Source: Desulfuromonadales bacterium
GTDB lineage: Bacteria > Desulfobacterota > JAENJC01
DNA length: 64,000 nucleotides
Assembly (NCBI GenBank): GCA_919902985.1
Contig: CAKKSC010000004.1
Span: forward strand, 32,230-96,229
Direction: 5' to 3'
Position numbers and translations under genes: made by a program. Under the pieces are notes generated by a model. It saw only the letters and a program-made list of their open reading frames with translations, searched no databases and was not told the DNA's origin. Positions 17,555 to 38,188 of the stretch are shown here, piece by piece (the stretch's first letter is position 1; the number at the start of each line of letters is the position of its first letter).

Positions 17555-18100
17555 TTACAACAGCGGTTTTACTATATTCTCTATAGATTCTTTATTGAGG
17601 TCTCCGAATATCCGTTCCCTGATTATACCTTTCCTGTCTATTAAGAAGGTGGTCGGGACGCCATACACCTGGTAAAGGTTTGTTACCTCCTTGTCCTCAT
17701 CAATAAGGTTCGGGAATGTCAACCCCAGCTCTCTAACAAACTGACCGGTCTTTTCAGGCGGGTCTTCCACGTTTACGGCAATTACTACAAACCCGTCAGC
17801 CATCATATTACGAAAGCTGGATTGAAGTTTTGGCATTTCTATTTTGCAGGATTCACACCGGGTCGCCCAAAATCTGAGTAGTACAACTTTACCCTTCCAT
17901 TGGTCAAGAGAGTAGCTGTTGCCGTTAAAATCTTTTAGTGTAAATCCCGGCGAAGGCTTCCCTAACTGCTCTTCCTGGTCGGTTCGTTTTTTATTTTCAC
18001 AGGCGTTAAGAAATAGGAGTGAGAGGATGAGGGGTAACTGTAAAATCAGGGACCGTCTAAGGTTTTTCTTCTCAGTATCCTTCATATCATGACAAATCAT
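17555..18100 (-). CDS. TlpA/ResA-family disulfide reductase lipoprotein
   Basis: Lipobox 'LNAC', 'FWATRCESC', 'YQVYGVPTTFLID..G'. Confidence 0.9.
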   Translation of the reverse strand: MICHDMKDTEKKNLRRSLILQLPLILSLLFLNACENKKRTDQEEQLGKPSPGFTLKDFNGNSYSLDQWKGKVVLLRFWATRCESCKIEMPKLQSSFRNMMADGFVVIAVNVEDPPEKTGQFVRELGLTFPNLIDEDKEVTNLYQVYGVPTTFLIDRKGIIRERIFGDLNKESIENIVKPLL

Positions 18101-19260
18101 TTTACCAGACGTAATTCAGGAGATGTCTCTCCCTTTTCCACGAGAATGATAAACGGGGTTCTGATGGTCTGGGCATCTTCACTCATAGAGATTTCGCCGG
18201 AAACACCTCGAAATCCTTTTATTTCAGTAAGCGCAGTCCTGACCTTTGAAGGTTCTGTACTCCCGGCTTTCTTTATGGCCTCTGCAATTAGCATAAAGGA
18301 GTCATAACTCGCGGCAACCACAGGTGAAGGGTCCTTCCCCTTAGCATTCCTGTAAGACTCAATAAACTTCACGGTTACGGGGTCGTCAGAGAGGGTAGTG
18401 AAGCTCGTGTAGAGGACAGAGCCAATGGTGGCCTCCCCGCCTGCCTTCAAAAACTCGGCAGCATTCAGGTTCTCACTGCCCACGAATGGCGCTTTTATAC
18501 CCTGTCTTCGCAACTCCTTCAATACTTCTATCGCCCCCTTACTGTTTCCGGTAAATACGACGGCATCAATATTTGCACCTGATTCCTTTTTTAACTTGGC
18601 AATCGCCTCTTTAGTACTAAGATCAAAATGGACATAGGCCTGGGAAACCACCTCTCCCTTGTGTTTCTGTATCGCCCTCATGTAAAGGCTTACCGCATTC
18701 ATGGTAGATTCCTCATCCCGCATGGATGTTATAATTGCATACCTCTTGTATTTGAGCTTTTCAATACAGTATTTTATTGTTTCATCTGTAGCAATCTCTT
18801 CTGGAAGGGCGTTTCTAAATATATAAGGCCCGCTCTTTTCTATATGCCGCCTGCTTCCAGCAGACATAAAAATAGTCCCTGACTCGTTCGCCATCGAAAC
18901 CGGCGCAAAAGATGACAACCCGTCAGGGGAGGCAATAATCGCCACAACCTTGTCATCAATGAGCTTGCCTGCCGCCTGCATCGTCTCACGCATGACACCT
19001 TTGTTATCTACAAATGAGGTCTCAACTTTTTTACCCTGTATCCCCCCCGCCTTGTTGAATTCCCTTGCAGCCATCGCCACACCTTCAAATACATATTTGC
19101 CGAATTCAGCTGAACCTTCGCCAGTTTTCGGCCCGAGAATGCCAATCTTGAGCTTTCTGGAAGGCTCCGCTGCCGTTTCCGCTGCTGCCTTCTCTATATT
19201 TGAGGTAAAGACAATCAGCAGGAAACATGCAATTTGAATTATTAGTGACACCTTTCTCAC
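18097..19260 (-). CDS. LivK/LivJ-type periplasmic substrate-binding protein
   Basis: Signal peptide; 'KIGILGPKTG', 'FNKAGGIQGK', 'YIFRN', 'SYDS', 'GVSGEI'. Confidence 0.85.
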   Translation of the reverse strand: MRKVSLIIQIACFLLIVFTSNIEKAAAETAAEPSRKLKIGILGPKTGEGSAEFGKYVFEGVAMAAREFNKAGGIQGKKVETSFVDNKGVMRETMQAAGKLIDDKVVAIIASPDGLSSFAPVSMANESGTIFMSAGSRRHIEKSGPYIFRNALPEEIATDETIKYCIEKLKYKRYAIITSMRDEESTMNAVSLYMRAIQKHKGEVVSQAYVHFDLSTKEAIAKLKKESGANIDAVVFTGNSKGAIEVLKELRRQGIKAPFVGSENLNAAEFLKAGGEATIGSVLYTSFTTLSDDPVTVKFIESYRNAKGKDPSPVVAASYDSFMLIAEAIKKAGSTEPSKVRTALTEIKGFRGVSGEISMSEDAQTIRTPFIILVEKGETSPELRLVK

Positions 19261-20210
19261 TTCTCTTTTACCTCTAAATCAGTCGCTTCATCAGGAACAC
19301 CATCCAGGAACTCCTCTTCAAGGAGGAAAACATTCCTGTCTCCTCCCCTTTTTGCAAAAAAACCCCTGAGCTTCTTGTCCTTTTCACCGATTAACAGTGT
19401 CTCGAGGAGGTTCTTATTGTCAATGAATTTTATCTTCAGTCTTGGGTTATCGAGGCCATATGTACTAAGGCTTTGCGGGTTCTCATCTATGAACGCCTTG
19501 ACCTTCGACTTTTTTATGCCGTACAGGGTATCAAGTATCTTGGTCAGATCACTTTTACCTTTCAGGACTCCTTCCACATCCCATATATTCTCCTGCGGAT
19601 GGAGTATGGTTATGGCCTGTTTGCCGTTCCAGAGTATATCAACCTCTTTAACCATCTTAGGGTCCGTCGCTACTACAGTCTTGTCCCTGAGGTCGTAAGG
19701 CATCTTGTCAATTTCCGACCTCACATCAGCATGGACACGCAATATCCTCTTGTCCCCGCTTAATGTGGCAAATGCAACGTTCTGTGTAGGCCCTCTGTCA
19801 CCCAATGACAAGGAGGTCGACATCCCTAATGAGGTCTTCAGGGAAATGGTTATATATGGCGGCTCCAAACCCATTTCTTTCAATTTATCTACAGGAGTTT
19901 CTGTAAACAACACACCGTCAATCTTTGCCTTTACTGTGTTATTCAGCATATCGCTGACGGCAACCTGGTCGGCATAAGCCATAACCGGCTTTTCAATCAC
20001 CCAGCCTGCGGTCCCCTTCTTTGCCGAAATTACGGAATCACTCTTAGATATCTCAATACTTATCACATCTGCAGGTTCAAAGGCAAATATCCGGCGCTGT
20101 TCTTCCTCTGCAATCTCTTTATCAGTCACCTTCTCATCAAAGAAGTAGAAAATGCCGCTGAGTACTGAAAGGATTATGAGCCAGAATATGGTCTTCTTGA
20201 AAAATCTCAC
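19257..20210 (-). CDS. DUF4340-family membrane-anchored periplasmic protein
   Basis: N-terminal TM; two repeats with 'W..EKP....AD' and 'YGLD.P'; follows GldG-like gene. Confidence 0.75.
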   Translation of the reverse strand: MRFFKKTIFWLIILSVLSGIFYFFDEKVTDKEIAEEEQRRIFAFEPADVISIEISKSDSVISAKKGTAGWVIEKPVMAYADQVAVSDMLNNTVKAKIDGVLFTETPVDKLKEMGLEPPYITISLKTSLGMSTSLSLGDRGPTQNVAFATLSGDKRILRVHADVRSEIDKMPYDLRDKTVVATDPKMVKEVDILWNGKQAITILHPQENIWDVEGVLKGKSDLTKILDTLYGIKKSKVKAFIDENPQSLSTYGLDNPRLKIKFIDNKNLLETLLIGEKDKKLRGFFAKRGGDRNVFLLEEEFLDGVPDEATDLEVKEK

Positions 20211-21763
20211 TATTTGATCCTGCGGCGTGTAAGAACAGCAACGCCAATAACAAGGATTATGGAAGGAACAACGACTACAGGAATCCAGAAGATAAATCTC
20301 CCCTGAGAGGCCGTCAAAATGAGTGGGGTCAGGTTGGAATCCTTCTTTCTCACAGAGATAAGCTCTGCCTCCTCTGTAAGCCAGTTTACCATATTAAGAA
20401 AAAAGTCCTTGTTGCCTGCAAGATTAACATGGGTAGTATTTACGAACGAGGAATTCCCAACAACAACAAACTTTGCATAGACCTTCTTTCCAGAAGCATC
20501 ATCTCCGCCTTCAACCTTTTTGCTGACATCGCTTATAGCTACTGCGGCGATGGAGAGAGGGCCTTTCTTCTCGACCCTTTCATCATACTCGGCCTTTCCT
20601 TCCTCAAGCGCCTTCCTGTCCGTTTCCCCCCAACTTGCCTCTGACGTTAAAGCAAGGGGGAAAAAACCTTTTGATGGGTCCCTGTCCACCTCTACAGACC
20701 TTGCCAGGGGAAAGAAGGTCATTACATTAAATTCTTCTGTGATAGGGTGCTGCTTCTCGTACTGGGTAACAACCGGGACAAGATAGTTTGCACCATAGAC
20801 CTGCGATAATTTATCTATTATTATATCATTCCCAAGACGAAAACCATAACCCTGAAGGAATTCTGCCAATTTAGGCGTTGTCCCCGGGTCGAGCATAAAG
20901 AGGAGACTCCCCCCCCTGTTTATGTAACTGGTAAGTCTCTCAAGCTCGTCCGGCAGCGGGTCCTTCTTTGGACCGCTCACAATAAGAAGCGCACAGTCGT
21001 CCGGCACTTCAACTGCGCCCGGCAGGAGCAATTCTTTGACCTGATAATTCTCCTTCTCAATAGACTCTTTTATCGCCTTGTACCCTAAGTTCTGAAAGTC
21101 AGCTATATCATTTTCTCCATGACCTTTAAGAAAATATACACTTTTTATCTCATCCCTTGTTACCTTTACTATTGCATTGATCAGCTTATCTTCCGATTCA
21201 AATCCAACCTCCTGCTGATTCGCTCCACTCCTGACAAGGGTTGTCCTATATGCGGTAACTCCGTATTTTGCTGCAGCCCCAGGCTGTTTATCAGGGTCTA
21301 TGAACTGGTATGAAAACTTCGAGGATAACTGGGAAAACTCGGAAAGAAGGTCTTCCATCGCCTGTCTCGTCCTTTCATCGCTCCTGTAAAAGGCAACAGC
21401 CATGACATCTTTTTTCAGCGTCTTTACTATCTTCTTACTCTGAATAGAAAGGGTATAACGACCTGTCTTGGTCAGGTCCCACCTTACTTTGTATCTCGTA
21501 GTAAAGAATGAAACTACACCAATCATAGTAATAAAGATTATGATCATCACCGCTGTATTTGCACCATATTTAGCAGACCTGAGTGTTAATAATGTCCTGA
21601 GTTCAGGGAAGCTCACATAGAAATAGAAGAGGAGGATGAGCAACCCAATCCATAAGAGGGCAATTATATAGCTCTCCATTGCACCGCTTATAGCATATGT
21701 AATCCCTCCAGCGGCTACGGTTAAAAGACCTATAATCCCTATTATTGGCAGAAACCTTTTCAT
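20210..21763 (-). CDS. GldG-family ABC auxiliary protein
   Basis: 'RWDLTKTGRYTLS', 'IDPDKQP', 'YFLKGHGE', 'GNKDFFLNMVNWL', C-terminal TM. Confidence 0.88.
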   Translation of the reverse strand: MKRFLPIIGIIGLLTVAAGGITYAISGAMESYIIALLWIGLLILLFYFYVSFPELRTLLTLRSAKYGANTAVMIIIFITMIGVVSFFTTRYKVRWDLTKTGRYTLSIQSKKIVKTLKKDVMAVAFYRSDERTRQAMEDLLSEFSQLSSKFSYQFIDPDKQPGAAAKYGVTAYRTTLVRSGANQQEVGFESEDKLINAIVKVTRDEIKSVYFLKGHGENDIADFQNLGYKAIKESIEKENYQVKELLLPGAVEVPDDCALLIVSGPKKDPLPDELERLTSYINRGGSLLFMLDPGTTPKLAEFLQGYGFRLGNDIIIDKLSQVYGANYLVPVVTQYEKQHPITEEFNVMTFFPLARSVEVDRDPSKGFFPLALTSEASWGETDRKALEEGKAEYDERVEKKGPLSIAAVAISDVSKKVEGGDDASGKKVYAKFVVVGNSSFVNTTHVNLAGNKDFFLNMVNWLTEEAELISVRKKDSNLTPLILTASQGRFIFWIPVVVVPSIILVIGVAVLTRRRIK

Positions 21764-21800
21764 TTAACAGTTTATCTCCTTAGAGTAAATCATGTAACCC

Positions 21801-22580
21801 CTATCCCCTCCACTTCTTTGACTCCAGCACCCTGAGCGTCAGAAAGTTAAAAAGTATAATAAAGAGAAAATAGTATATTATGTCCGTCGTATCGACTATG
21901 CCCTTTGCAAACCCTTCCAGATGCCCGATCAACGATATGTGCACCATGATATTTCCAATCGTGGGACCCATTAAGGAGACTGAAGTCCCCATCATGAAGA
22001 ACAGGATCAGCACCCCAAAAGACAAGGTGGCCGCGATTATCTGGTTCTCTGTCAGGGAGGATGTAAATATTCCAAGAGAGATAAAGGCCGCACCTGTAAG
22101 GATGAGCCCTATATACCCGGTAATAGTCGGTCCTATTTCAGGCTCACCTAAGAAAATCAACAATGCCGGAAATGTAGCTGTAAGCAGGAGCATTAAAAGG
22201 AATACAACAAAGCAGGCAATAAATTTCCCGATTATGACCTCCATATCAGTCACCGGATAAGTTAACAGAAGCTCAATTGTTCCACTCTTCTTCTCCTCTG
22301 AGAAGAGGCGCATAGTTAGAAGCGGCATCATAAGGAGCATGATCATGCTTATATTGCCAAAAAGAGGTCTGACTACCGTCTCCGTGATATTTAAAAGGTT
22401 CTGCTGTTTAGCTATAGCAGGGTTTGTAGAGGCCTGGAAGCTAAGGGTTGAAAAAGAAGCAAGCAGATTATAAAAATAATATCCGGTGACAACAAGAAAG
22501 ATCGTTATTACGACGTAGGCGACAGGCGACGAAAAATAAGAATTGAGTTCCTTCTTAGCTATAAGATAAAAGTTTCTCAT
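21801..22580 (-). CDS. GldF-like ABC-2 permease
   Basis: 'KELNSYFSSPVAY', 'PLLTMRLFSEEKKSGTIELLLT.P', 'SSLTENQIIAA'. Confidence 0.9.
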   Translation of the reverse strand: MRNFYLIAKKELNSYFSSPVAYVVITIFLVVTGYYFYNLLASFSTLSFQASTNPAIAKQQNLLNITETVVRPLFGNISMIMLLMMPLLTMRLFSEEKKSGTIELLLTYPVTDMEVIIGKFIACFVVFLLMLLLTATFPALLIFLGEPEIGPTITGYIGLILTGAAFISLGIFTSSLTENQIIAATLSFGVLILFFMMGTSVSLMGPTIGNIMVHISLIGHLEGFAKGIVDTTDIIYYFLFIILFNFLTLRVLESKKWRG

Positions 22581-22587
22581 TTATCAG

Positions 22588-23520
22588 CTACTCCTTTGTC
22601 ACCAGTTTGATAAAAATATCCTCAAGACTCATCTCAACCGGTCTCAGTTCCAGCAGACCCCAGCCGCTTCTTACAATGCCGGCGGCAATGTCCCTTCTGA
22701 CATCAATACCCTTTTCGGTATCTAATATGAACTCGGATACGCCATTGCTGCTCTCTTTTTTGTTAACCCTGTTTATTCCCCGAATCTTCTGAAGTCCGGT
22801 TATAACCTCCTGCGCCGGTCCGTCCACTTTCACAATAAGGCGGCTCGCCCCCTGTATGTTAGATGTAAGGTTCTGAGGCGTATCAACTGCCACCACCTTC
22901 CCCTTATTTATAATGACCACCCTGTTGCAGGTCATGCTTACTTCAGGGAGGATATGGGTGCTCAGGATTATCGTCCTTTTACCGGCCAAACTTTTTATCA
23001 GTTTTCTAATCTCTATAATCTGTTTCGGGTCAAGCCCAACTGTGGGCTCATCCAGTATCAGCACCTCGGGTTCATTTACAAGCGCCTGGGCCAGTCCGAC
23101 CCTCTGGCGATACCCCTTTGAAAGCTCATTTATCATCTTATGGGACATGTCGGAAAGACCACACTCTTCGAGGGCATTCCCAACCCGGTTCTTCAAGTCC
23201 TGCCGCCTCACACCCTTGATCCCTGCGACAAATGTGAGGTAGTCAACTACCTTCATATCCCTGTAAAGCGGCACATTTTCCGGCAGATAACCTATCCTCT
23301 TTTTTACCTCATGAGGCTCTTCAAATACGTCATAACCAGCAATACTGGCCTTGCCGCTTGTAGCAGGAAAGAAACAGGTAAGGATTCTCATTGTGGTTGT
23401 CTTGCCCGCGCCGTTAGGCCCGAGAAACCCCAATATCTCTCCCTTTTCTACAGAGAAAGTGATCTCATTAAGGGCTTGATAGCTACCGTAACTCTTTGTC
23501 AGCTTCTCTACTTGAATCAT
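22588..23520 (-). CDS. GldA-like ABC transporter ATP-binding protein
   Basis: 'GPNGAGKTT', 'LSKGYRQRVGLAQA', 'LDEPTVGLDP', 'STHILPEV'; ATG at 23520 preferred over the ORF-track start 23556. Confidence 0.92.
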   Translation of the reverse strand: MIQVEKLTKSYGSYQALNEITFSVEKGEILGFLGPNGAGKTTTMRILTCFFPATSGKASIAGYDVFEEPHEVKKRIGYLPENVPLYRDMKVVDYLTFVAGIKGVRRQDLKNRVGNALEECGLSDMSHKMINELSKGYRQRVGLAQALVNEPEVLILDEPTVGLDPKQIIEIRKLIKSLAGKRTIILSTHILPEVSMTCNRVVIINKGKVVAVDTPQNLTSNIQGASRLIVKVDGPAQEVITGLQKIRGINRVNKKESSNGVSEFILDTEKGIDVRRDIAAGIVRSGWGLLELRPVEMSLEDIFIKLVTKE

Positions 23521-23539
23521 TATATAACCTGCCTGATTT

Positions 23540-24067
23540 CTATTTTGAACCTGCACCTTCAGGATTAAATGTGCCTTCCTTATGCGTGCCTGGGATCGAT
23601 TTCTTCATCAATGCCTGCTCAATCTTTCGTTGAGAGAACGGCGTATCCAATAACTTTATAAGTGCCTCATCACCTTTTAGGAGTTTCTTCAGGTCTTCTT
23701 TCCTCCAGCCCTCCTCCCAGTTCCCGATAAGACCGCTCCATACCTGAGAGATGGCCACAGCCTCGGCATCGGTGATGGTTGGGAGATATTCTTTTCCCGG
23801 TTTTGCCCTTTCAATATCAATAAGGCTCTTCATGTTATGAACAACAACAATAAACGGTGGGCCGCACCTGAAGCAATATTTTGTTATCTTATCTATATTA
23901 TGGCATGAGGAACACTTTGCATACGCAAGAGAAACCGCTTCATCCGGGGTATATTCAAGATAACCTCGAGTCTTGGATGCTGAAAGTATCTTGTCTTTAA
24001 ATGCCAATGAAATAACTACGATAAGAAGGAAAACTATAGATATTAAAATCAGATATTTAGATTTCAC
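23540..24067 (-). CDS. Membrane-anchored monoheme c-type cytochrome with extra CxxC
   Basis: N-terminal TM, 'CSSCH', 'CFRC', downstream 'HNM'. Confidence 0.65.
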   Translation of the reverse strand: MKSKYLILISIVFLLIVVISLAFKDKILSASKTRGYLEYTPDEAVSLAYAKCSSCHNIDKITKYCFRCGPPFIVVVHNMKSLIDIERAKPGKEYLPTITDAEAVAISQVWSGLIGNWEEGWRKEDLKKLLKGDEALIKLLDTPFSQRKIEQALMKKSIPGTHKEGTFNPEGAGSK

Positions 24068-24090: not shown

Positions 24091-24133
24091 AAAAAATACA
24101 GGGCACGACCAGTATTTTCCGGCCATGCCCTGT
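24091..24133 (-). terminator. Intrinsic terminator after the cytochrome c genes
   Basis: Minus strand acagggcatggcc-loop-ggtcgtgccctgt followed by atttttt. Confidence 0.7.
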
Positions 24134-24183
24134 CAATGTCAATGCTGCAAAAATGACATTATTAATGATACCTGTGCATATCC

Positions 24184-25128
24184 TTATTTTTTGAACATCT
24201 TTGCTTCATCTGCAGCACTCTTTCTCAAGCCGCCTTCGACATAACCTGCACCCTTCAGACCGCCGCCGCGTCCTGCGAGCGATGCCTCAGCAAGTTCATT
24301 AGCTTCAGCAAATGCCGGGTCGGTTGCAGCATTCAATGCATTTACCTTGTTGGCTGCGGATTTAGGATCGAATGAAGACTTCGGGTTTAAATAATCGGCA
24401 ACGCTTGTAATTTTCTTAGTGTCGGCGTTTGCCCTTATCCAGGCGATAACATTCCAGATATCCTGGTCATGAAGAAGATTTCCCCACTGTGGCATAACGT
24501 CCGCAAGGTCAACTGCTCCACCACCTCCCTTTATGACCGTGAACAGCTCAACATTGGTCTTCTTGTTCATGTACGCAGCACCTGCAGTGAGGTCCCTTGG
24601 ATACGGATCGAGGTATGTGGCGTTGGGTCCATCACCCTTAAGAAGCCAGCCATGACATCCAACGCAGTAAACATAATACCACTGCTTCCCTTCGTTCGGG
24701 TTTGCGCCTGGAACCAGGCTTTCCTTGAACGATGGAGACCAGTTGTTTGTCCACTGATTGTATGCGGCTTCACCGCTTAGCGGCTTTGCAGCCCTGTCCC
24801 ACATCTCCGTCTTGCCAGTGCCCTTTGAGTAGCCACTCTCGGTCGCGAAGGTCTTCGTGTTCGCCTTGGATGTCCTCTTTCCTACGCCTGTCAAATAGTC
24901 AAAGGGGGCTATGCCGTACGTGCTTCCGCCTATACCCTTGGCCATATTCATGGCTTCCTTTTCGTAATTAGCTGCTGCATCACTCAGCTCAGCCTCTGTA
25001 CGAGTCGGACACTCCACCTTCACTCCCTCAGCCGTACACCTCTTTTCTGCAGCATTCCCCGCCGCTGCAAATACAAAGATGCTTAAAACTGTACACACTG
25101 TAATTCCTCTTACTTTGCCTTTCATCAT
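24184..25128 (-). CDS. Periplasmic monoheme cytochrome c with long N- and C-terminal extensions
   Basis: Signal peptide, 'CVGCHG..LKGDGP', 'PRDLT', 'MPQWG'. Confidence 0.85.
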   Translation of the reverse strand: MMKGKVRGITVCTVLSIFVFAAAGNAAEKRCTAEGVKVECPTRTEAELSDAAANYEKEAMNMAKGIGGSTYGIAPFDYLTGVGKRTSKANTKTFATESGYSKGTGKTEMWDRAAKPLSGEAAYNQWTNNWSPSFKESLVPGANPNEGKQWYYVYCVGCHGWLLKGDGPNATYLDPYPRDLTAGAAYMNKKTNVELFTVIKGGGGAVDLADVMPQWGNLLHDQDIWNVIAWIRANADTKKITSVADYLNPKSSFDPKSAANKVNALNAATDPAFAEANELAEASLAGRGGGLKGAGYVEGGLRKSAADEAKMFKK

Positions 25129-25168: not shown

Positions 25169-25534
25169 TTATTTAGCCGTGCAGTTACACAGCTTCCGTA
25201 AGTAGGACACCATATCCTTTATTTCGTCAGCAGTCAAGGTCTTCCCAAATGGAGGCATAAGAGGAGACTTGCTGTTTGCCGGCCCACCGTCCGTAATAGC
25301 GTTCGTGATATCTGCATCGGAAAGCTTGCTCATATCCTCAGCGCTTGCATGGTTTCTTGGGGTTACGGCCATGTCCTTTGTGACATTGATCCCGTCGCCC
25401 TTGCCTTGAGGGCCATGACACTGAGTACAGTAAAATTTATAATTCTCTTCAGCAGTAGCCGCGTAAGAAACCCCGGTTCCCAAAGTCATCATTACAGCAA
25501 AAATCATTAAGAGATAAAGTGCTTTTTTGTTCAT
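25169..25534 (-). CDS. Periplasmic monoheme cytochrome c
   Basis: Signal peptide, 'CTQCHG..GKGDG', 'MPPFG'. Confidence 0.92.
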   Translation of the reverse strand: MNKKALYLLMIFAVMMTLGTGVSYAATAEENYKFYCTQCHGPQGKGDGINVTKDMAVTPRNHASAEDMSKLSDADITNAITDGGPANSKSPLMPPFGKTLTADEIKDMVSYLRKLCNCTAK

Positions 25535-25601
25535 CTATAACTCCTTATAAATTAGGTTTGAGGCGGTTAATAAAACCGCATGGGACTAACTCCCTTTCAA
25601 T

Positions 25602-26285
25602 TTAAAAACTTGCAATGAGGGCAGCTACGTTCTTCATGTCAACGTCACTCAAATAACCTTCATAAATAGGCATCCTCTTAACAGGCTTAAACACCTTAGG
25701 CTTCTTCAGATATGCATATACCCAGTCGCCCTGAAGCCTCTCACCGGCCTTAACCAGGCTCGGCGCAACCATTCCGCCAACAACCTTGCCGGTCTTCTCT
25801 ATCTGATGACATGCCTGACATGCCTGCTTTTTCTCAAATGCCTGTTTCCCCTGAATGTTCTTATTTGCCTGAATCACTCCTGCCTCTACATCCTTTGATG
25901 TAAGGGTCATAAGATATTCTGCAACCTCGTCAGCCTCTGCCTTTGACAGTTTTGGGTGGTTGCCTGCGTTCTTCTTCTCCAATGAATTATACTCGATAGG
26001 CCTTATGACTATAGGGTCCTGAAGCCACTTTTCCAGCCATTCCTTCTTAAATTTACTGCCGGCATACCACAGCTCCGGCCCTTTCTTCTTAAGCTGGTCC
26101 GCAAAGGTCTTCTCAGTAGCAGGCCCCTGAGTTATATGACAATCACCGCTGCCGCACTTCTTTGCCTCAAACACACCCTTACCCTTGGCCGCGTCAGCGC
26201 GGCTGCTCTCCGCACCAAATCCAATCATGGCAGATGCGAGGAGCGATACTACAACAACACGACTGCAAGTTACTCTTTTAACCAT
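25602..26285 (-). CDS. Periplasmic diheme cytochrome c (CX4CH + CX2CH)
   Basis: Signal peptide; 'CGSGDCH' then 'GPELWYAG'; 'CQACH' then 'APSL' and 'MP'. Confidence 0.82.
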   Translation of the reverse strand: MVKRVTCSRVVVVSLLASAMIGFGAESSRADAAKGKGVFEAKKCGSGDCHITQGPATEKTFADQLKKKGPELWYAGSKFKKEWLEKWLQDPIVIRPIEYNSLEKKNAGNHPKLSKAEADEVAEYLMTLTSKDVEAGVIQANKNIQGKQAFEKKQACQACHQIEKTGKVVGGMVAPSLVKAGERLQGDWVYAYLKKPKVFKPVKRMPIYEGYLSDVDMKNVAALIASF

Positions 26286-26341
26286 TCGAACCCTCCTTTG
26301 TAAATTTATGAACCATTGTATATATCACCTAAACAGAGTTG

Positions 26342-27394
26342 TCAAGGGGATAATTGCTTAAGCATATTTTTTTCTGTTTCATCTATACTTATAGACATCT
26401 TTGGCGATTCCACTTTTACAATGCCGTTGCCATCAATCACACCCAGTTCATTGGTGCCTATGACAGTAAACCACACCTTATTGGAAGCTGCTACCGTTAT
26501 ATCTACCGGCGCCCGGTCCCCGCCGACCAGATCGAACTCAATAAATCCCTTATCCTTAGGTGAATAACGGCCAACACGCTTTTTATACTTGTCGCAATAC
26601 CATATATTCCCGGCACTGTCGACGGCAAGCCCTTCAGGGACGCCCTTTCCCGGCAGCTCAAACTCATCGAATCTTTCCGATACCGGATCAAACTTCACAA
26701 GCTTCCTGTCTTTCCTCGCACTGAACCAGAGTTGCCCCTGTCCATCTATTGTAAGCTCTGTAGGCACACAGAACGGCTTTGGTATGATGTATTCCTTTAT
26801 CTTCCCTGTCTCAGGAATCAGTTTGCTAATTTTGTTCCCCTGAGTTTCAATAAACCATACTGCGCCCTTATTGGTTGCCACTATCCCCACTGGCTGGCTC
26901 TTTGGCGTTGGGATTGGGTGCTCCTTGAAACTCTTGGTGACCGGATCAAACTCACCGATCCTGTTCCCGGCAAACTCCGTAAACCAGACCCTGCCGTCTT
27001 TATCCACGGAAAGCCTCATTGACTGGCTCTTTGGAGACGGGATATCATACTCTTCAAATCTCTTGGTTTCCAGATCAAAAGTTCCTATCTGGTTCCCGTC
27101 CTCTTCAACAAACCAGATCCTGCCTTTATGATCAACTGTTATATCTGTGGCCGAGCTGCGCGAGGTTGGTATCTCGTATTTAGTGAACTGCTCGTCTTTC
27201 TGGTTGAATATAAATATTAAGTTATTTCTAAAATCAACGAACCAGATGCGCCCGCTTACATCAGAGCTGATTGCAACAGGAACACCATTGGAAGAGGGTA
27301 TCGAATAATATTTTACCTTTGACTCCTCTGCAAAAGCCTGAGCGGCTACAGCTGTGAATAATCCTATACCTATGATCACATTTCTACATCTCAT
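26342..27394 (-). CDS. Exported Vgb (virginiamycin B lyase)-like beta-propeller
   Basis: Signal peptide; ~7 repeats of 'IP...S.P..I.VD..GRVWF.E..GN.IG.FDP'. Confidence 0.85.
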   Translation of the reverse strand: MRCRNVIIGIGLFTAVAAQAFAEESKVKYYSIPSSNGVPVAISSDVSGRIWFVDFRNNLIFIFNQKDEQFTKYEIPTSRSSATDITVDHKGRIWFVEEDGNQIGTFDLETKRFEEYDIPSPKSQSMRLSVDKDGRVWFTEFAGNRIGEFDPVTKSFKEHPIPTPKSQPVGIVATNKGAVWFIETQGNKISKLIPETGKIKEYIIPKPFCVPTELTIDGQGQLWFSARKDRKLVKFDPVSERFDEFELPGKGVPEGLAVDSAGNIWYCDKYKKRVGRYSPKDKGFIEFDLVGGDRAPVDITVAASNKVWFTVIGTNELGVIDGNGIVKVESPKMSISIDETEKNMLKQLSP

Positions 27395-28563
27395 TTATTT
27401 CCCTTTCCTCTTAATATAAATCGAATAACGATTGCGAGAAGAGATATGGATACGAGAGCAATAAAAACCATCATGAGCATCTGCGATATCCTGTCCGATT
27501 TATCATCTTTCGCGCTTTCCTCCTGTTTTTTCCCAACCTTAAGAGTATCTGATATATCCAGTTTTCCTATCCTGTTAGCGTCCCTGTCTGATTCAGTAAA
27601 CCATGCGATGCCTTCCCTGTCAACCGCAATACTGGTAGGCAGAGACTTTGACGTCGGGATCTCATATTCACTCACAACAGCGCTTACGGGATCGAAGACC
27701 CCTATCTTGTTACCCCTGTTCTCCACAAACCAGACCAACCCTTTCTGGTCTATAGCTATGCTCGAGATCACAGGAGAAAGGGTCGGCACGATCACCTCGT
27801 TAAAGGCCTTCAATGAGGGATTGAACATCCCTATCCTTCCTGTAAGCATCTCAGCAAACCAGACCATACCATTGCCGTCAATTGCGATAGATGAAGGATT
27901 TGCAAAAGGAGTTGGTATAATATGCTCAATGATCTTGCCCTTGACAGGGTCAAGGCTTGCGAGCTTATTACCATCCATCTCCGTAAACCAGACAATTCCC
28001 ATCTTATCTATGGCAACTGCCGATGGATGACTGGATGGAGTTGGTATCGTATGCTCCTTTATAACTCCCGTCTCAGGTGAAAGGCTCGCAACCTTATTGC
28101 CTTCACGCTCTATAAACCATACAGTCCCGTTCTCCGCTATCGCCAGATCGTAAGGGTTGCTATCTACCGTTTTGATTGGAAAGCTCTTGTATTTATCTGT
28201 TGATGGATTAAAATTAATGATGCTGTTCCCGCTTGAATTAGCTATCCAGATACTACCATCCTTCGCTGCAACTATTCCTGCTGGAACTCCAGGGTAAGGA
28301 ATTACATGCTCCTTGAATGCATTATCTGATGGTGTAAACCTCAGTATCTTGTTTTCATTCTGATAGGCAAGCCATATATGTCCGCTTCCATCATTTACAA
28401 TAGCAATGCGGGCAGGAGAAACGGCAGGTATTGGAATAACAAACTCTTTAATGACGGAATCGGCGGCAGTCGAGCCCCCTGCCATTATTAAACAGAAGAA
28501 TATAGAGGCAAATAAAATTTGTGCCATTATAGGGAAAATACGGAGTTTAACTGTTTTTGCCAT
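27391..28563 (-). CDS. Exported, C-terminally anchored Vgb-like beta-propeller
   Basis: Signal peptide (start 28563 preferred over 28623), ~7 Vgb-type repeats, C-terminal TM. Confidence 0.85.
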   Translation of the reverse strand: MAKTVKLRIFPIMAQILFASIFFCLIMAGGSTAADSVIKEFVIPIPAVSPARIAIVNDGSGHIWLAYQNENKILRFTPSDNAFKEHVIPYPGVPAGIVAAKDGSIWIANSSGNSIINFNPSTDKYKSFPIKTVDSNPYDLAIAENGTVWFIEREGNKVASLSPETGVIKEHTIPTPSSHPSAVAIDKMGIVWFTEMDGNKLASLDPVKGKIIEHIIPTPFANPSSIAIDGNGMVWFAEMLTGRIGMFNPSLKAFNEVIVPTLSPVISSIAIDQKGLVWFVENRGNKIGVFDPVSAVVSEYEIPTSKSLPTSIAVDREGIAWFTESDRDANRIGKLDISDTLKVGKKQEESAKDDKSDRISQMLMMVFIALVSISLLAIVIRFILRGKGNK

Positions 28564-28999
28564 CAGGAGTGCTTTCACCGGTAAAATCGATCTTCCAGCT
28601 CCTTGATTTCTCATCAAGGTCAAGGTTTATATCCGTAGTAACGCAAACTTCTCCGCCGAATGCAGATGTACACTTATATTCTATCGTAACAACGGCCCGG
28701 TCTTTAACAACCTTAGAGCCGACAATCTTCACTACCATATTTTTTGGATAGTTCAACACTATTCCCTTGAACTTATCTTCAGTTAGAGTGAACCGCTTGG
28801 AGCTGACCTGCCTGTATGCCTCACTGATAGAGGAACTTCCACCTTCGGCAATGTAACTGTAGAACTTCTTTACGACCTCCTCAGGAGACTCTGAAGTCTT
28901 GATCTTAACAGAACCACTGTATTGATAAACATAAACCCCGATAATGATGATTAAAAAAAGAAATAATGTCCCCACTGCCAATAACTTTTTTTTACTCAT
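28547..28999 (-). CDS. Membrane-anchored periplasmic hypothetical protein (NTF2/DUF4878-like)
   Basis: N-terminal TM; 'SPEEVVKKFY', 'A.V.IEY', 'WKI'. Confidence 0.6.
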   Translation of the reverse strand: MSKKKLLAVGTLFLFLIIIIGVYVYQYSGSVKIKTSESPEEVVKKFYSYIAEGGSSSISEAYRQVSSKRFTLTEDKFKGIVLNYPKNMVVKIVGSKVVKDRAVVTIEYKCTSAFGGEVCVTTDINLDLDEKSRSWKIDFTGESTPDGKNS

Positions 29000-29014
29000 T
29001 AATTACATCCTCTC

Positions 29015-29072
29015 AAAAAACAAATGGTTCGGCCGCAGACATTAAGACATTAATTGACTGCGGCCGAACCAT
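29015..29072 (-). terminator. Long stem-loop / intrinsic terminator directly after nosZ-like gene
   Basis: atggttcggccgcag...ctgcggccgaaccat perfect 15-bp stem, followed on minus strand by ttgtttttt. Confidence 0.8.
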
Positions 29073-29089
29073 CGCATTATCCTTAACTA

Positions 29090-30832
29090 TTATATCTGAT
29101 TAAGATTATCTACCCTCTCTGCCCTTTCAAATTCGTCTTCATCGGCAGCAACGTTCTTCTTCTGGGCCTCATCATAATCGCCTACAGCAAGGTTGGAAGG
29201 ACCTTTCTTCGGATCGTCTACGAAGAACGCGCCCCTCATCTCGAGGTGCAGAGGACCGCAGAAGTGCTGGCAGTAAACCTCATATTCACCAGCTGTATCA
29301 GCGACAAACTCACCAACAGCACTCACACCCCTCGGGATAGTAATCATGGTCTTGAGACCATATGGCCCGTTTATGTTGTAACCCATAATAACATCGGGGT
29401 TTTTGGTTATGCCTGCTGCCTTATCAATATTGGTTACAATAAGCCTGACCTTATCGCCCTTATTGACCCTGACCTGCCTTGGGACATAACCGTAGCTGAA
29501 TGCCTTTACCCTAACTTCCTTAACACCGTCCTTAGTTGTGGTCACGCCCGGCCTGCCTGTATCCATCGGCACATAGTAAGACTTGCCGCCTCTATGGTGC
29601 CCCGGCTCAATCCTGCCGGACTTACCAGCGCCTGCAAAGAGGGTTGATACACCCTTCTCGGCCTCACCCATGTTCCAGTTCTTGATTGCGCTTGCAAAAA
29701 GGATCTTTGCGTTGTGCGGCTCACCGTCAACAGGGATAATCTTGAGGGTCTTACCATATGTCTTGCTCTTCTCCTCAATGTCGATCATCTCATGGTTGAC
29801 CGGCCAGGCAATGCCTGTCGGGCTGAAAAGCCCGGTAGAGAACTTGTTCAAGGCAAATACATACTTATTGTCAGGGCTAACACTTATATGCCCGATCCTG
29901 TAGTGAACCGGGAACTCGTCAACAACCTCCAGCTTGTCCAGGTCTGTCTTCACGATGCTGTCTGCCACAAAGCAGCTTGTATACGCATACTTGCCGTTTG
30001 TGTCAAACACGTTGTGCAACGGACCGGCTCCGGCAGGGATAACCTTCTTGACAGCAAGCTTTTCAACATCTATGATGCTGAGCGTTGCGGAGAGCTTGTC
30101 CGCGACCTGGATATACCTTCCGAGTGGGTCGGCGTCCGTACCGTGCGGGTTCTTACCAACTGGGATCTCCTTTATGAGCTTGAACGGATTCAGCTCGAAG
30201 ACACCGACTGTTGAGTGGTAGTAGTTGTTGGAGAAAACATACTGCTTCCTGTCTGCCTTACCGGCCTTCTTGTTTATGTCAAGATAGTCCGGGGCGCTTG
30301 GCGCAGGACCCCAGTCTATGACCTGGGTCTTGCCGGTTGCTATATCGGTCTTGGCCATCTTTCCTGTGAGCTCGCCTGTTGAATAAAGGGTCTTTCCGTC
30401 AGGTCCGAGTGTGATGTGGTGAATGCCGAACGGGAAAGGCAAAGAAATGAGCCTGTCCAGCATACCCATCTGGAGGTTGATTATCCCGATGGTGTTTGCC
30501 CCCTTATCGTTCACATAGAGGTATTTGCCATCAGGCCCTTTGCTGTACGGACCATACCAGCTCTTCATACCTTCGTTTGTAGGTGCGCTGAATGTTGGCT
30601 CATGCAGGTCAACACCAACAGGTATATGCCTGTATGTCCTCAAGCTTGGCACACCCATCACAGCCACAGCTCCGTCAACCCCACCTGCGTTATACATGAT
30701 CATAGGGTCCTGAAGCGGGGCGTCATTTGGAGACGATTCCGTCTCGTGCCAGTCCCTCTCACCCGCCACCGCAGTGCCGCCAACCATAAGCAGCAGTGCA
30801 AGCACTATAAATAATGAATTGCGATATCTCAT
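29090..30832 (-). CDS. nosZ: Divergent nitrous-oxide-reductase-like multicopper protein (beta-propeller + CuA cupredoxin), Sec-type signal
   Basis: NosZ motifs 'GVPSLR', 'DGKYLYVNDK', 'KNPHG', 'ADKLS', 'GPLH', 'VHY.IGH', 'LNKFS', 'EPH', CuA 'CQHFCGPLHLEM'; deviations DLHE, GIHH, DVIMG; no twin-arginine motif. Confidence 0.8.
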   Translation of the reverse strand: MRYRNSLFIVLALLLMVGGTAVAGERDWHETESSPNDAPLQDPMIMYNAGGVDGAVAVMGVPSLRTYRHIPVGVDLHEPTFSAPTNEGMKSWYGPYSKGPDGKYLYVNDKGANTIGIINLQMGMLDRLISLPFPFGIHHITLGPDGKTLYSTGELTGKMAKTDIATGKTQVIDWGPAPSAPDYLDINKKAGKADRKQYVFSNNYYHSTVGVFELNPFKLIKEIPVGKNPHGTDADPLGRYIQVADKLSATLSIIDVEKLAVKKVIPAGAGPLHNVFDTNGKYAYTSCFVADSIVKTDLDKLEVVDEFPVHYRIGHISVSPDNKYVFALNKFSTGLFSPTGIAWPVNHEMIDIEEKSKTYGKTLKIIPVDGEPHNAKILFASAIKNWNMGEAEKGVSTLFAGAGKSGRIEPGHHRGGKSYYVPMDTGRPGVTTTKDGVKEVRVKAFSYGYVPRQVRVNKGDKVRLIVTNIDKAAGITKNPDVIMGYNINGPYGLKTMITIPRGVSAVGEFVADTAGEYEVYCQHFCGPLHLEMRGAFFVDDPKKGPSNLAVGDYDEAQKKNVAADEDEFERAERVDNLNQI

Positions 30833-38181: not shown

Positions 38182-38188
38182 CTTTCAT

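What the first reader, a model, noticed from the sequence alone, without database searches (positions are those of the whole stretch)
17555..30832. Non-canonical N2O-reductase-like operon with a wholly different accessory gene set
Seen: 14 co-oriented genes: nosZ-like, anchored NTF2-like protein, two Vgb propellers, four c-type cytochromes, GldA/F/G, DUF4340, LivK-type binding protein and TlpA. None is recognisable as nosD, nosL, nosR, nosX, nosB, nosG/H or a typical nosFY. Known: clade I and II nosZ clusters depend on NosDFY(L) for CuZ assembly and NosR or NosB/GH/C for electron supply. A divergent 'clade III / lactonase-type' N2O reductase family has recently been reported, and I cannot verify membership from sequence alone. 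Inference: an alternative maturation and electron-delivery system for a divergent N2O reductase or a related multicopper enzyme; this is the best candidate for an undescribed system here.
Basis: partly seen in the sequence, partly recalled or inferred. Interest (0 to 1): 0.92.

Follow-up and report, generated by a model that had tools for sequence, protein, structure and literature searches.

The report
Clade III nitrous-oxide reductase gene cluster
This is a gene cluster for the third, "lactonase-type" kind of nitrous-oxide reductase described in 2025, carried by a groundwater bacterium with its own conserved helper genes instead of the classical ones; it belongs to a published family and is not a new system.

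Summary
The nosZ-like gene is a clade III lactonase-type N2O reductase. It scores 700.9 bits on NCBIfam equivalog NF052460 (cut-off 700) and lies far below the clade I/II cut-offs. Its best fold matches in the PDB are NosZ structures.

The genome (95% complete) has no canonical nosZ and no NosD above cut-off. It has two stray NosL-family genes.

The accessory genes are conserved across 80 public L-nosZ loci. In a 301-genome phylum sample, the NTF2-like protein and the strong Vgb-propeller hits occur in exactly the six L-NosZ genomes. The ABC permease's only meaningful PDB match is NosY.

This lineage lacks the split cytochrome b pair found inside 37 of 80 loci. Three other L-nosZ-linked modules lie elsewhere on the contig.

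Papers citing He et al. (Nature 2025) already state that clade III clusters lack nosDFYL and carry cytochromes and ABC transporters. Verdict: a new member of a known kind. The functions of the helper genes remain untested.

The parts
29090..30832 (-). L-NosZ, clade III lactonase-type N2O reductase (580 aa). Sec-type signal peptide, beta-propeller plus C-terminal cupredoxin domain.
   Evidence: NF052460 scores 700.9 bits (cut-off 700); TIGR04246 188 and TIGR04244 151 bits (cut-offs 625). Pfam families. Top PDB fold hits are NosZ, e.g. 1fwx_C, E 1.7e-32. CuA motif C521-x3-C525-x3-H529-x2-M532 and ten invariant propeller His.
28547..28999 (-). g02: membrane-anchored NTF2-like protein (150 aa). 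Candidate partner or anchor of L-NosZ.
   Evidence: No Pfam or NCBIfam family. AF2 pLDDT 81.6 with an NTF2-like fold. Directly downstream of L-nosZ in 41 of 81 sources. Found in exactly 6 of 301 phylum genomes, the six with L-NosZ. The complex model supports binding to the cupredoxin domain.
27391..28623 (-). Vgb1: Vgb_lyase-family beta-propeller with signal/anchor and a C-terminal TM helix. The ORF as listed starts at TTG; the true start is probably further in.
   Evidence: PF24684, 172 bits. TM-like segments. Present in 45 of 80 loci.
26342..27394 (-). Vgb2: soluble periplasmic Vgb_lyase-family beta-propeller.
   Evidence: PF24684, 193 bits. Present in 45 of 80 loci. Hits at E<=4e-81 occur only in the six L-NosZ genomes of 301.
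25602..26285 (-). g05: c-type cytochrome (227 aa) with CxxCH at residue 156 and a CX4CH-like motif at 44-50.
   Evidence: Present in 24 of 80 loci.
25169..25534 (-). g06: mono-haem c-type cytochrome (121 aa).
   Evidence: Family matched in 54 of 80 loci.
24184..25128 (-). g07: 314-aa c-type cytochrome, the most widely linked cytochrome. Inferred direct donor to CuA.
   Evidence: Present in 48 of 80 loci, and directly after nosZ in the Gallionella-type and Zetaproteobacteria-type loci.
24098..24133 (-). Terminator-like hairpin (15-bp stem followed by a U run) between g07 and g08.
   Evidence: In a 131-nt fold: -41 kcal/mol, z -4.7, 0 of 200 shuffles as stable.
23540..24067 (-). g08: membrane-anchored mono-haem cytochrome c (175 aa, CxxCH at residue 52).
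   Evidence: Present in 25 of 80 loci.
22588..23556 (-). g09: ABC ATPase (GldA-like and NosF-like).
   Evidence: NosF 7o0y_B, E 1.2e-39. Present in 18 of 80 loci.
21801..22580 (-). g10: six-TM ABC-2 permease (GldF-like and NosY-like).
   Evidence: PF12679. NosY 7o0y_D is the only PDB match to the single sequence (E 0.0011) and the only one below E 0.1 to the 13-sequence profile (E 0.0016). The six best of 179 phylum matches are the six L-NosZ genomes.
20210..21763 (-). g11: GldG-like ABC auxiliary protein with TM helices at both ends and a large periplasmic part.
   Evidence: PF09822 and PF23357.. Present in 11 of 80 loci.
19257..20210 (-). g12: anchored DUF4340 protein.
   Evidence: Present in 6 of 80 loci.
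18097..19260 (-). g13: LivK-type periplasmic binding protein with no cognate permease in the operon.
   Evidence: Present in 14 of 80 loci. Same order as in L065.
17555..18100 (-). g14: TlpA/ResA-like periplasmic thiol:disulfide oxidoreductase (CxxC at residue 82).
   Evidence: Present in 13 of 80 loci.
31075..31103 (-). Sigma-70-like promoter (TTGACA, 17 nt, TATATA) about 240 nt upstream of the nosZ start codon.
   Evidence: Read directly. It is not listed by the scan, whose rule requires T at position 6 of the second hexamer.
31456..35499 (+). Divergent two-component pair: sigma-54-type response regulator (31456-32841) and PAS histidine kinase (32863-35499).
   Evidence: A response-regulator homologue lies near L-nosZ in 11 of 80 loci.
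56807..61962 (+). Second linked module: CydA-like 'bd-like' membrane protein, two c-type cytochromes, and a dihaem cytochrome c fused to an EB_dh haem-b domain.
   Evidence: Pfam. 48-81% identical homologues lie next to L-nosZ in 19-21 of 80 loci. The bd-like protein is in 16 of 301 phylum genomes, including all six with L-NosZ.
62696..63832 (+). Fused cytochrome b (378 aa), homologous to the split cytochrome b pair found inside other L-nosZ clusters.
628..3802 (+). Third linked module: CcmH-like protein (628-1641), TlpA-like protein (2417-3022) and a CcdA-like membrane protein (3023-3802).
   Evidence: Pfam. Homologues lie beside L-nosZ in 13, 10 and 9 of 80 loci. 'CcdA-like' rests on my reading of the sequence printed, not on a family hit.

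Best explanation
The 14 genes form the nos cluster of a clade III (lactonase-type) nitrous-oxide reductase in a small-genome groundwater bacterium. The closest named public records are titled Deltaproteobacteria or Thermodesulfobacteriota MAGs.

Shown here:
- Gene 1 is an L-NosZ, a Sec-exported propeller-plus-cupredoxin protein.
- The genes after it co-occur with L-nosZ across phyla.
- Canonical nosZ and NosD were not found in the genome.

Inferred mechanism:
- L-NosZ reduces N2O to N2 in the periplasm.
- The anchored NTF2-like protein g02 binds its cupredoxin domain and holds it at the membrane.
- Electrons reach CuA through the c-type cytochromes. The 314-aa g07 is the likely direct donor, and the anchored g08 is the membrane-side relay.
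- Quinol oxidation is done outside the operon, because this lineage lacks the split cytochrome b pair that sits inside most other clusters. The candidates are the fused cytochrome b at 62.7 kb and the bd-like/cytochrome c module at 56.8 kb.
- The NosFY-like ABC-2 transporter, with its GldG-like and DUF4340 periplasmic partners, does the job of NosDFY in building the Cu-S centre.
- TlpA keeps the CuA cysteines and haem-attachment cysteines reduced.
- The two Vgb-type propellers are L-NosZ-specific, but their role is open.
For: Identity of the enzyme:
- NF052460 scores 700.9 bits against a cut-off of 700. The clade I and II models score 151 and 188 bits against 625.
- Top PDB sequence hits are NosZ, E about 1e-30. 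Top fold hits are NosZ, E 1.7e-32, TM 0.51.
- The CuA motif is present. Five canonical CuZ His positions align: H178, H326, H382, H433 and H494 correspond to H138, H230, H273, H315 and H373 (ligand numbers appear in the entry titles).

No classical system in the genome:
- No clade I/II nosZ over cut-off.
- The only NosD-Pfam hit is a 263-aa beta-helix protein scoring 67 bits on TIGR04247 (cut-off 300).
- 0 of 5 other L-NosZ genomes of the phylum sample have NosD over cut-off.

Linkage in 80 public L-nosZ loci (tblastn, E<=1e-5, coverage>=0.4):
- g02 43; Vgb1 45; Vgb2 45; g07 48; g06 54; g08 25; g05 24.
- ABC ATPase 18; permease 14; GldG-like 11; DUF4340 6; binding protein 14; TlpA 13.
- Among the 33 loci with at least 8 kb fetched on both sides: 18, 27, 27, 25, 26, 17, 17, 10, 8, 5, 3, 10 and 5, in the same order.

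Phyletic pattern in a 301-genome phylum sample:
- L-NosZ is in 6 genomes.
- g02 is in exactly those 6 and in 0 of the other 295.
- Vgb2 at E<=4e-81 is in exactly those 6, with weak hits (1e-16 to 1e-27) in 4 others.
- The six best permease matches (68-100% identity) are those 6 genomes; the next best is 58%.

g02 binding:
- ipSAE 0.65, best of 3 controls 0.00. This mark was reached by 58 of 80 solved complexes and 2 of 110 mismatched pairs.
- The runs share at least 76% of their contacts, and the partner's pLDDT is at least 83.
- The interface lies on L-NosZ residues 419-509.

NosFY likeness:
- NosY is the only PDB match of the permease as a single sequence, E 0.0011. It is the only match below E 0.1 for the 13-sequence profile, E 0.0016.
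- NosF matches the ATPase at E 1.2e-39.

Literature:
- Clade III clusters lack nosDFYL and encode cytochromes and ABC components (PMC13685413, passages; PMC13477213, whole text).
- Clade III NosZ is called 'widespread and active' (PMC13502197, passages).
Against: - The NCBIfam score sits exactly at the cut-off (700.9 vs 700).
- N2O reduction by this protein is untested.
- The canonical H129/H130 pair does not align to His.
- There is no His anywhere in residues 442-520, where the first CuA His ligand (H583 in P. stutzeri) should lie. An invariant Met483 stands in a DVxMG motif instead. The metal sites may therefore differ from classical NosZ.
- Every accessory function is inferred from context.
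- Neither g02 nor the Vgb propellers have conserved Cys, His or Met.
- The ABC-2 permease family is common: 179 of 301 phylum genomes.
- The ABC module is not within 10 kb of L-nosZ in 15 of 15 Nitrospinota and 5 of 5 Zetaproteobacteria loci, judged by the permease.
- A terminator-like hairpin separates genes 1-7 from genes 8-14.
- The NosY match is weak (21-22 bits).
- I could not read He et al. 2025 or any supplement, so I cannot say how far these helper genes are already annotated there.
Confidence: 0.8

Rival explanations
1. Only genes 1-7 (L-nosZ to the 314-aa cytochrome) belong to N2O reduction. Genes 8-14 (anchored cytochrome, ABC-2 transporter, GldG-like, DUF4340, binding protein, TlpA) are a separate envelope-transport operon that merely lies downstream.
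For: - A terminator-like hairpin with a promoter-like site lies at 24098-24142.
- Permease homologues occur in 179 of 301 phylum genomes.
- The permease lies within the fetched flanks of only 14 of 80 loci. It is in none of 15 Nitrospinota and none of 5 Zetaproteobacteria loci.
- guaA follows only 21 nt after TlpA.
Against: - The six best of the 179 permease matches (68-100% identity) are exactly the six L-NosZ genomes.
- In families f1 and f61 the L-NosZ-negative genomes have no match. In f6 they have only remote ones, E about 1e-31.
- The order g07-g08-ATPase-permease-GldG-DUF4340 recurs beside L-nosZ in loci titled Delta-, Alpha- and Gammaproteobacteria and Nitrospiria.
- Permease identity to those loci (58-71%) is as high as nosZ identity.
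Confidence: 0.15
2. The L-NosZ-like protein of this lineage is a copper enzyme with a substrate other than N2O. The cluster would then serve another periplasmic redox reaction.
For: - The score is exactly at the family cut-off.
- The canonical HH pair and the first CuA His are missing.
- No NosD was found.
- No nirK and only a weak nirS-like hit were found, so there is no internal N2O source by those routes.
Against: - The same ligand pattern is invariant in all 20 aligned family members, which come from several phyla, so it is a family trait.
- Papers citing He et al. 2025 treat the family as active N2O reductases.
- Non-denitrifying N2O reducers are well known for clade II (PMC13477213 text).
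Confidence: 0.05

Closest known systems
Clade III / lactonase-type N2O reductase (L-NosZ, L-N2OR) gene clusters (He et al., Nature 2025;646:152; not held here, known to me only through citing papers)
   Same: - The enzyme matches the NCBIfam equivalog.
- No nosDFYL is present.
- Cytochromes and ABC transporter components lie beside nosZ (PMC13685413 passages; PMC13477213 whole text).
- Same core as 80 public loci: NTF2-like gene, two propellers, c-type cytochromes.
   Different: - This lineage and its 95%-identical relative L009 lack the split cytochrome b pair. The 210-aa PF00033 protein and the 240-aa partner are present in 37 and 35 of 80 loci.
- The review describes 'b-type cytochromes' and a 'MacB-type' transporter for its representative. 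I found neither in this operon.
- The thiol-reduction module and the bd-like module that adjoin nosZ in other genomes lie 14-26 kb away here.
NosDFY(L) maturation machinery of clade I/II nos clusters (P. stutzeri structures 7o0y and others)
   Same: - An ABC ATPase plus a six-TM ABC-2 permease, with periplasmic partners, encoded beside nosZ.
- NosY is the permease's only meaningful PDB match, and NosF matches the ATPase at E 1.2e-39.
   Different: - There is no NosD beta-helix protein and no NosL in the operon.
- The periplasmic partners are GldG-like and DUF4340 proteins.
- The NosY match is only 21-22 bits.
Clade II (Sec-dependent) nos clusters with c-type cytochromes and NosB/NosGH
   Same: - A Sec-type signal peptide rather than twin-arginine.
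- c-type cytochromes are encoded next to nosZ.
- The host appears to be a non-denitrifier by the nirK/nirS searches.
   Different: - TIGR04246 scores 188 bits against a cut-off of 625.
- No NosD was found.
- None of the 14 proteins matched a ferredoxin-type domain in Pfam. NosB, NosG and NosH were not searched by name.
GldA/GldF/GldG gliding-motility ABC transporter of Bacteroidota
   Same: These are the best NCBIfam matches of g09, g10 and g11.
   Different: All three score well below the equivalog cut-offs, so this is only the same broad ABC-2 family.

Membership tests
Clade III lactonase-type NosZ (NCBIfam NF052460) | Whole-protein score at or above the curated equivalog cut-off | tested here: met
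   700.9 bits against a cut-off of 700, covering profile positions 1-480 of 480. 701.3 bits in the genome search. The margin is under 2 bits.
Clade III lactonase-type NosZ (NCBIfam NF052460) | Distinct from clade I (TAT) and clade II (Sec) NosZ | tested here: met
   TIGR04244 scores 150.9 bits and TIGR04246 scores 188.2 bits, both against cut-offs of 625. No tree with reference sequences was built.
Clade III lactonase-type NosZ (NCBIfam NF052460) | NosZ-like fold: beta-propeller plus C-terminal cupredoxin domain | tested here: met
   Pfam Lactonase, YNCE, nos_propeller and Cupredoxin_1. AF2 model mean pLDDT 68.4. All top listed PDB matches are NosZ, E 1.7e-32, TM 0.51.
Clade III lactonase-type NosZ (NCBIfam NF052460) | Copper ligands for CuA and CuZ | tested here: inconclusive
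   C521, C525, H529 and M532 are invariant. Five canonical CuZ His positions align and ten propeller His are invariant. However, the H129/H130 pair and the first CuA His have no aligned His. Without model coordinates I could not assign the seven CuZ ligands.
Clade III lactonase-type NosZ (NCBIfam NF052460) | Cluster without nosDFYL, with cytochromes and ABC transporter genes (as described by citing papers) | tested here: met
   Descriptions in PMC13685413 and PMC13477213.
Clade III lactonase-type NosZ (NCBIfam NF052460) | Catalyses N2O reduction to N2 | not testable with these tools
   Needs an enzyme or whole-cell assay.
NosDFY(L) maturation system | NosD periplasmic beta-helix protein over the family cut-off, encoded with the transporter | tested here: not met
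   None in the operon. The only genome hit is the 263-aa protein at 41993-42784, scoring 67.1 bits on TIGR04247 (cut-off 300), beside a hemerythrin-domain gene.
NosDFY(L) maturation system | NosF ATPase and NosY ABC-2 permease | tested here: inconclusive
   Remote likeness only. NosY E 0.0011 and 0.0016. NosF E 1.2e-39, ranking behind the ABCA transporters and two unnamed ATPases.
NosDFY(L) maturation system | NosL copper lipoprotein in the cluster | tested here: not met
   Two NosL-Pfam singletons lie on other contigs (C64 62.9 bits; C53 26.5 bits). Neither is beside an ABC transporter.
Gliding-motility GldA/GldF/GldG | Scores over the equivalog cut-offs | tested here: not met
   336.3 vs 402.6, 146.1 vs 288.5 and 97.3 vs 389.85 bits.
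Streptogramin B lyase Vgb(A)/Vgb(B) | Scores over the NCBIfam cut-offs | tested here: not met
   134-154 bits against cut-offs of 600. Only the broad Pfam Vgb_lyase propeller family is met.

The most novel reading that the evidence does not exclude
The genes that track L-NosZ most tightly form a NosD- and NosL-independent route for anchoring and maturing the Cu-S enzyme. These genes are the anchored NTF2-like protein, the two Vgb-type propellers, and the nosZ-linked subclade of the NosFY-like ABC-2/GldG/DUF4340 transporter.

In this reading, g02 is a stoichiometric membrane-anchor subunit bound to the cupredoxin domain. The family's CuA site has a Met in place of the classical first His ligand.

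None of this is stated in the papers I could read. He et al. 2025 and all supplements were not readable.
Probability: 0.3. Interest if true: 0.75.

Novelty: new member of a known kind. Interest (0 to 1): 0.45.

Why it matters
N2O reductase is the only known biological sink for a major greenhouse gas. [quoted passage not shown]

This window does not reveal a new system. The comparison of 80 loci and 301 genomes does narrow the question to a short list of testable genes:
- an NTF2-like partner predicted to bind the cupredoxin domain;
- two propellers found only with L-NosZ;
- a NosFY-like transporter subclade;
- a cytochrome-b-less variant, which shows that the quinol-oxidising step can be supplied from elsewhere.

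Tried and rejected
Literature that could not be reached:
- He et al. 2025 could not be read; it is not held by DOI or by PubMed id.
- A search for 'L-N2OR' found 0 papers.
- A search for nosZ together with virginiamycin B lyase, streptogramin lyase, Vgb, GldG or DUF4340 listed 15 of 32 papers. None, by title and abstract, is about clade III nosZ. So in the held library I saw no paper linking these families to nosZ.
- Supplements (for example Fig. S4 of PMC13477213, and those of He et al.) are closed and may already show these genes.

Sigma-54 promoter:
- TGGCAC-N5-TTGC with up to 2 mismatches gave 50 matches, against 50.07 expected by chance.
- None lies in the nosZ upstream region 30833-31455.
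- I therefore do not claim control by the neighbouring sigma-54 regulator.

Metal ligands in accessory proteins:
- There is no conserved Cys, His or Met in 41 g02 homologues.
- There is none at the 90% level in 34 Vgb1 and 34 Vgb2 sequences.
- I dropped the copper-chaperone idea for these proteins.

The NosD-like beta-helix protein at 41993-42784 has a homologue in only 1 of 80 loci, so I do not count it as part of the system.

Denitrification and copper-chaperone genes in the own genome:
- nirK: none.
- nirS: only 32.8 bits, in a 421-aa propeller.
- PCuAC: none.
- Four COX1-family hits were not followed up.

RNA evidence:
- Contigs from RNA-seq libraries hold the stretch. X11 covers 30 of 30 bins, X19 covers 9 of 30, and X20 covers 18 of 30 (mostly 95-99% alike, so a relative).
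- The tool warns that DNA can be present in such libraries and that contigs cannot rank genes. No silent control stretch could be laid, because the cap is one call.
- I therefore take this only as compatible with expression.
- The uncovered bins of X19 and X20 say nothing.

Script and input slips:
- The script stopped with an error after printing 36 clusters; the printed part was used.
- In one search I included window:1650-2420:+, a frame I guessed rather than a listed ORF. It matched nothing and is not used.
- The ORF clustering used a crude longest-ORF gene call. The nosZ cluster was recovered in 74 of 81 sources; the rest were truncated or displaced by overlapping ORFs. Offsets were computed only for those 74.

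Full report
**What is there**

Between 17555 and 30832 the minus strand carries 14 consecutive ORFs with short gaps or overlaps. Pfam and NCBIfam and a direct look at the translations give the following, in order of transcription:
- a 580-aa propeller-plus-cupredoxin protein;
- a 150-aa protein with an N-terminal membrane anchor and no family;
- two Vgb_lyase-family propellers, the first with a C-terminal TM helix;
- three c-type cytochromes of 227, 121 and 314 aa;
- a 175-aa anchored protein with a CxxCH motif and no family hit, which is a fourth cytochrome c;
- an ABC ATPase, a six-TM ABC-2 permease, a GldG-like auxiliary protein and a DUF4340 protein;
- a LivK-type binding protein;
- a TlpA/ResA-like thioredoxin-fold protein.

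The Gld names are only best hits below their cut-offs.

**The enzyme**

- The first protein scores 700.9 bits on the NCBIfam equivalog 'clade III lactonase-type nitrous-oxide reductase' (NF052460, cut-off 700). It scores 151 and 188 bits on the clade I and II models, whose cut-offs are 625.
- Against PDB sequences the best hits are NosZ, at E about 1e-30.
- An AF2 model (mean pLDDT 68.4) finds NosZ structures first (E 1.7e-32, TM 0.51).
- The signal peptide is Sec-type.
- In an alignment of 20 family members from several phyla, C521, C525, H529 and M532 are invariant (the CuA motif). H69, H77, H138, H139, H206, H230, H273, H310, H315 and H373 are also invariant.
- From the HMMER alignment to P. 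stutzeri NosZ, H138, H230, H273, H315 and H373 stand at the places of H178, H326, H382, H433 and H494. These ligand numbers appear in the PDB entry titles.
- Two things differ from classical NosZ. The H129/H130 pair has no aligned His. There is no His at all in residues 442-520, where the first CuA His (H583) belongs; an invariant Met483 sits in a DVxMG motif instead.
- These are family traits, not peculiarities of this window.

**Is a classical nos system hidden elsewhere?**

The genome is 2.13 Mb in 88 contigs, 95% complete.
- No clade I or II nosZ scores over cut-off.
- The one NosD-Pfam hit is a 263-aa beta-helix protein at window 41993-42784. It scores 67 bits on the NosD NCBIfam model (cut-off 300) and lies beside a hemerythrin-domain gene.
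- Two NosL-family singletons lie on other contigs, neither beside a transporter.
- None of five other L-NosZ genomes of the same phylum has a NosD over cut-off.

**Are the neighbours conserved?**

I fetched 80 public loci encoding relatives with 51-95% identity. Their records are titled Deltaproteobacteria/Thermodesulfobacteriota, Alpha-, Beta-, Gamma- and Zetaproteobacteria, Magnetococcales, Nitrospirota and Nitrospinota.

tblastn with each window protein (E<=1e-5, coverage>=0.4) finds the following numbers of loci out of 80:

| Gene | Loci of 80 |
|---|---|
| g02 | 43 |
| Vgb1 | 45 |
| Vgb2 | 45 |
| 314-aa cytochrome (g07) | 48 |
| 121-aa cytochrome family (g06) | 54 |
| anchored cytochrome (g08) | 25 |
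| 227-aa cytochrome (g05) | 24 |
| ABC ATPase | 18 |
| permease | 14 |
| GldG-like | 11 |
| DUF4340 | 6 |
| binding protein | 14 |
| TlpA | 13 |

- Many loci are short. Among the 62 with at least 4.5 kb downstream, the propellers are in 44.
- An all-against-all clustering of ORFs shows g02 always directly after nosZ on the same strand (39 of 39 scored).

**Phyletic pattern**

- In an even sample of 301 genomes of the window's phylum, L-NosZ occurs in 6.
- g02 occurs in exactly those 6 and in none of the other 295.
- Vgb2 matches at E<=4e-81 are in exactly those 6. Weak matches (1e-16 to 1e-27) occur in 4 others.
- The permease family is common, in 179 of 301 genomes. However, the six best matches (68-100% identity) are the six L-NosZ genomes and the next best is 58%.
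- Within families f1 and f61 the L-NosZ-negative members have no match. Within f6 they have only remote ones.
- Related genomes are not independent, so these are patterns and not statistics.

**What the accessory proteins look like**

- g02 models with pLDDT 81.6 as an NTF2-like domain behind a helix. Most homologues have a lipoprotein-type signal, and no Cys, His or Met is conserved.
- A complex model of L-NosZ (residues 25-545) with g02 (residues 30-150) supports binding. The ipSAE is 0.65, and the best of 3 controls is 0.00. This mark was reached by 58 of 80 solved complexes and 2 of 110 mismatched pairs. The runs agree in at least 76% of contacts, and the partner's pLDDT is at least 83.
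- The interface lies on L-NosZ residues 419-509, which are the linker and the cupredoxin domain. I know of no solved complex of this kind, so memory of a known structure is unlikely to explain the pass. It is a model, not a measurement.
- The propellers conserve only structural residues.
- The permease's only PDB match as a single sequence is NosY (E 0.0011). As a 13-sequence profile its only match below E 0.1 is again NosY (E 0.0016). The two share an EE..GT..LLLTYP stretch.
- NosF matches the ATPase at E 1.2e-39.
- PMC13477213 likewise speaks of 'NosF/NosY-like homologues' in clade III MAGs.

**How this cluster differs from its relatives**

- In 37 of 80 loci a 210-aa cytochrome b (PF00033) follows g02. 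In 35 loci a 240-aa partner does too.
- That partner is homologous to the C-terminal half of a fused cytochrome b.
- Both genes are missing here and in the 95%-identical relative L009.

The window instead holds three further sets of genes, away from the operon, that adjoin L-nosZ in other genomes:
1. 56807-61962 (+): a CydA-like 'bd-like' protein, two cytochromes c and a dihaem cytochrome c fused to an EB_dh domain. They are 48-81% identical to genes next to L-nosZ in 19-21 loci. The bd-like protein occurs in 16 of 301 phylum genomes, including all six with L-NosZ, so it is broader than L-NosZ.
2. 62696-63832 (+): a fused cytochrome b.
3. 628-3802 (+): a CcmH-like protein, a TlpA-like protein and a CcdA-like membrane protein. 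Their homologues sit directly upstream of L-nosZ in the closest Deltaproteobacteria-labelled loci.

Just past the window's end, the contig also carries radical-SAM/SPASM-PCP_red and Usp-PCP_red genes. These flank L-nosZ in 17 and 24 loci.

**Transcription signals**

- A near-consensus sigma-70-type promoter (TTGACA, 17 nt, TATATA) lies at 31103-31075 (read).
- No sigma-54 consensus lies upstream of nosZ, although a sigma-54-type response regulator and a PAS kinase are divergently encoded.
- A 15-bp hairpin with a U run lies between the 314-aa cytochrome and the anchored cytochrome (z -4.7). Genes 1-7 and 8-14 may therefore be made in different amounts or separately.

**Where it lives and whether it is expressed**

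- The 8-kb stretch is held near-identically by groundwater and aquifer metagenome runs. Leaving out rows marked as possible sources, these come from five studies, P3 to P7.
- It is also held by contigs of RNA-seq libraries from an aquifer study (X11 30 of 30 bins; X19 9 of 30 bins).
- By the tool's own caution, this is compatible with transcription and is not proof of it.

**Comparison with what is known**

- The enzyme family, its absence of nosDFYL, and the presence of cytochromes and ABC transporter components are in print: He et al. 2025, as reported by PMC13685413 (passages) and PMC13477213 (whole text).
- The review names 'b-type cytochromes' and a 'MacB-type' transporter. This operon has neither, so it is a variant architecture of the same kind.
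- I could not read the primary paper or any supplement.
- In the held library I found no paper tying Vgb-family propellers, GldG or DUF4340 to nosZ.

**Verdict**

- The claim of an undescribed system is not supported.
- It is a new member of a known kind.
- The helper-gene functions are inferred and open. The comparative results give a short, testable list.

Noticed in passing
window 29090-30832 (protein residues 442-532): In all 20 aligned L-NosZ proteins, the cupredoxin domain has no His where the first CuA His ligand of classical NosZ (H583) belongs. An invariant Met (M483, in an NPDVxMG motif) stands there instead. The classical H129/H130 pair is also not aligned to His, while H139 next to H138 is invariant.
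   Followed up: partly
window 56807-61962 (+): CydA-like 'bd-like' membrane protein, two c-type cytochromes and a dihaem cytochrome c fused to an EB_dh domain. They are 48-81% identical to genes beside L-nosZ in 19-21 of 80 loci. The bd-like protein is in 16 of 301 phylum genomes, so it is wider than L-NosZ. It could be a quinol:cytochrome c module.
   Followed up: partly
window 62009-63832 (+) and contig just beyond the window (L092:337-945): A TPR protein, a fused 378-aa cytochrome b and a 202-aa protein, syntenic with genes 5-7 kb upstream of L-nosZ in L015-L017.
   Followed up: partly
L092:1276-4995 (own contig, just past the window end): Two radical-SAM/SPASM proteins (one with a PCP_red domain) and a Usp-PCP_red protein. 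Their homologues flank L-nosZ in 17 and 24 of 80 loci, mostly titled Gallionella, Nitrosomonadales or Zetaproteobacteria. Function unknown.
   Followed up: no
window 628-3802 (+): A CcmH-like protein, a TlpA-like protein and a CcdA-like membrane protein. This looks like a periplasmic thiol-reduction chain, and it sits directly upstream of L-nosZ in the closest Deltaproteobacteria-labelled loci.
   Followed up: partly
window 41993-43584 (-): A 263-aa NosD-Pfam beta-helix protein (67 bits on the NosD NCBIfam model, cut-off 300) next to a hemerythrin-domain protein. It has a homologue in only 1 of 80 L-nosZ loci.
   Followed up: partly
L003:1477-3249 (own genome, contig C64): A stand-alone NosL-family protein (137 aa) beside a TlpA-like protein and a class-V aminotransferase (cysteine-desulfurase-like) gene.
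   Followed up: no
window 31271-31303: A G/C-rich inverted repeat lies in the nosZ-regulator intergenic region. Contigs of an RNA run (X11) and a DNA run (X12) break off into unlike sequence there (loose ends). It is a strain-variable spot.
   Followed up: no
window 31140-31154 (-): The palindrome TGGCCA-G-TGGCCA lies upstream of the sigma-70-like promoter. It is a possible regulator-binding site, and the scan also lists it as a weak terminator-like site.
   Followed up: no
window 35506-41556 (-): An 891-aa protein with an Hsp70/MreB-like domain, a radical-SAM-related protein and a 710-aa FtsH-like AAA/M41 protein lie between the nos operon and the other modules. None has a homologue in the 80 loci.
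   Followed up: no
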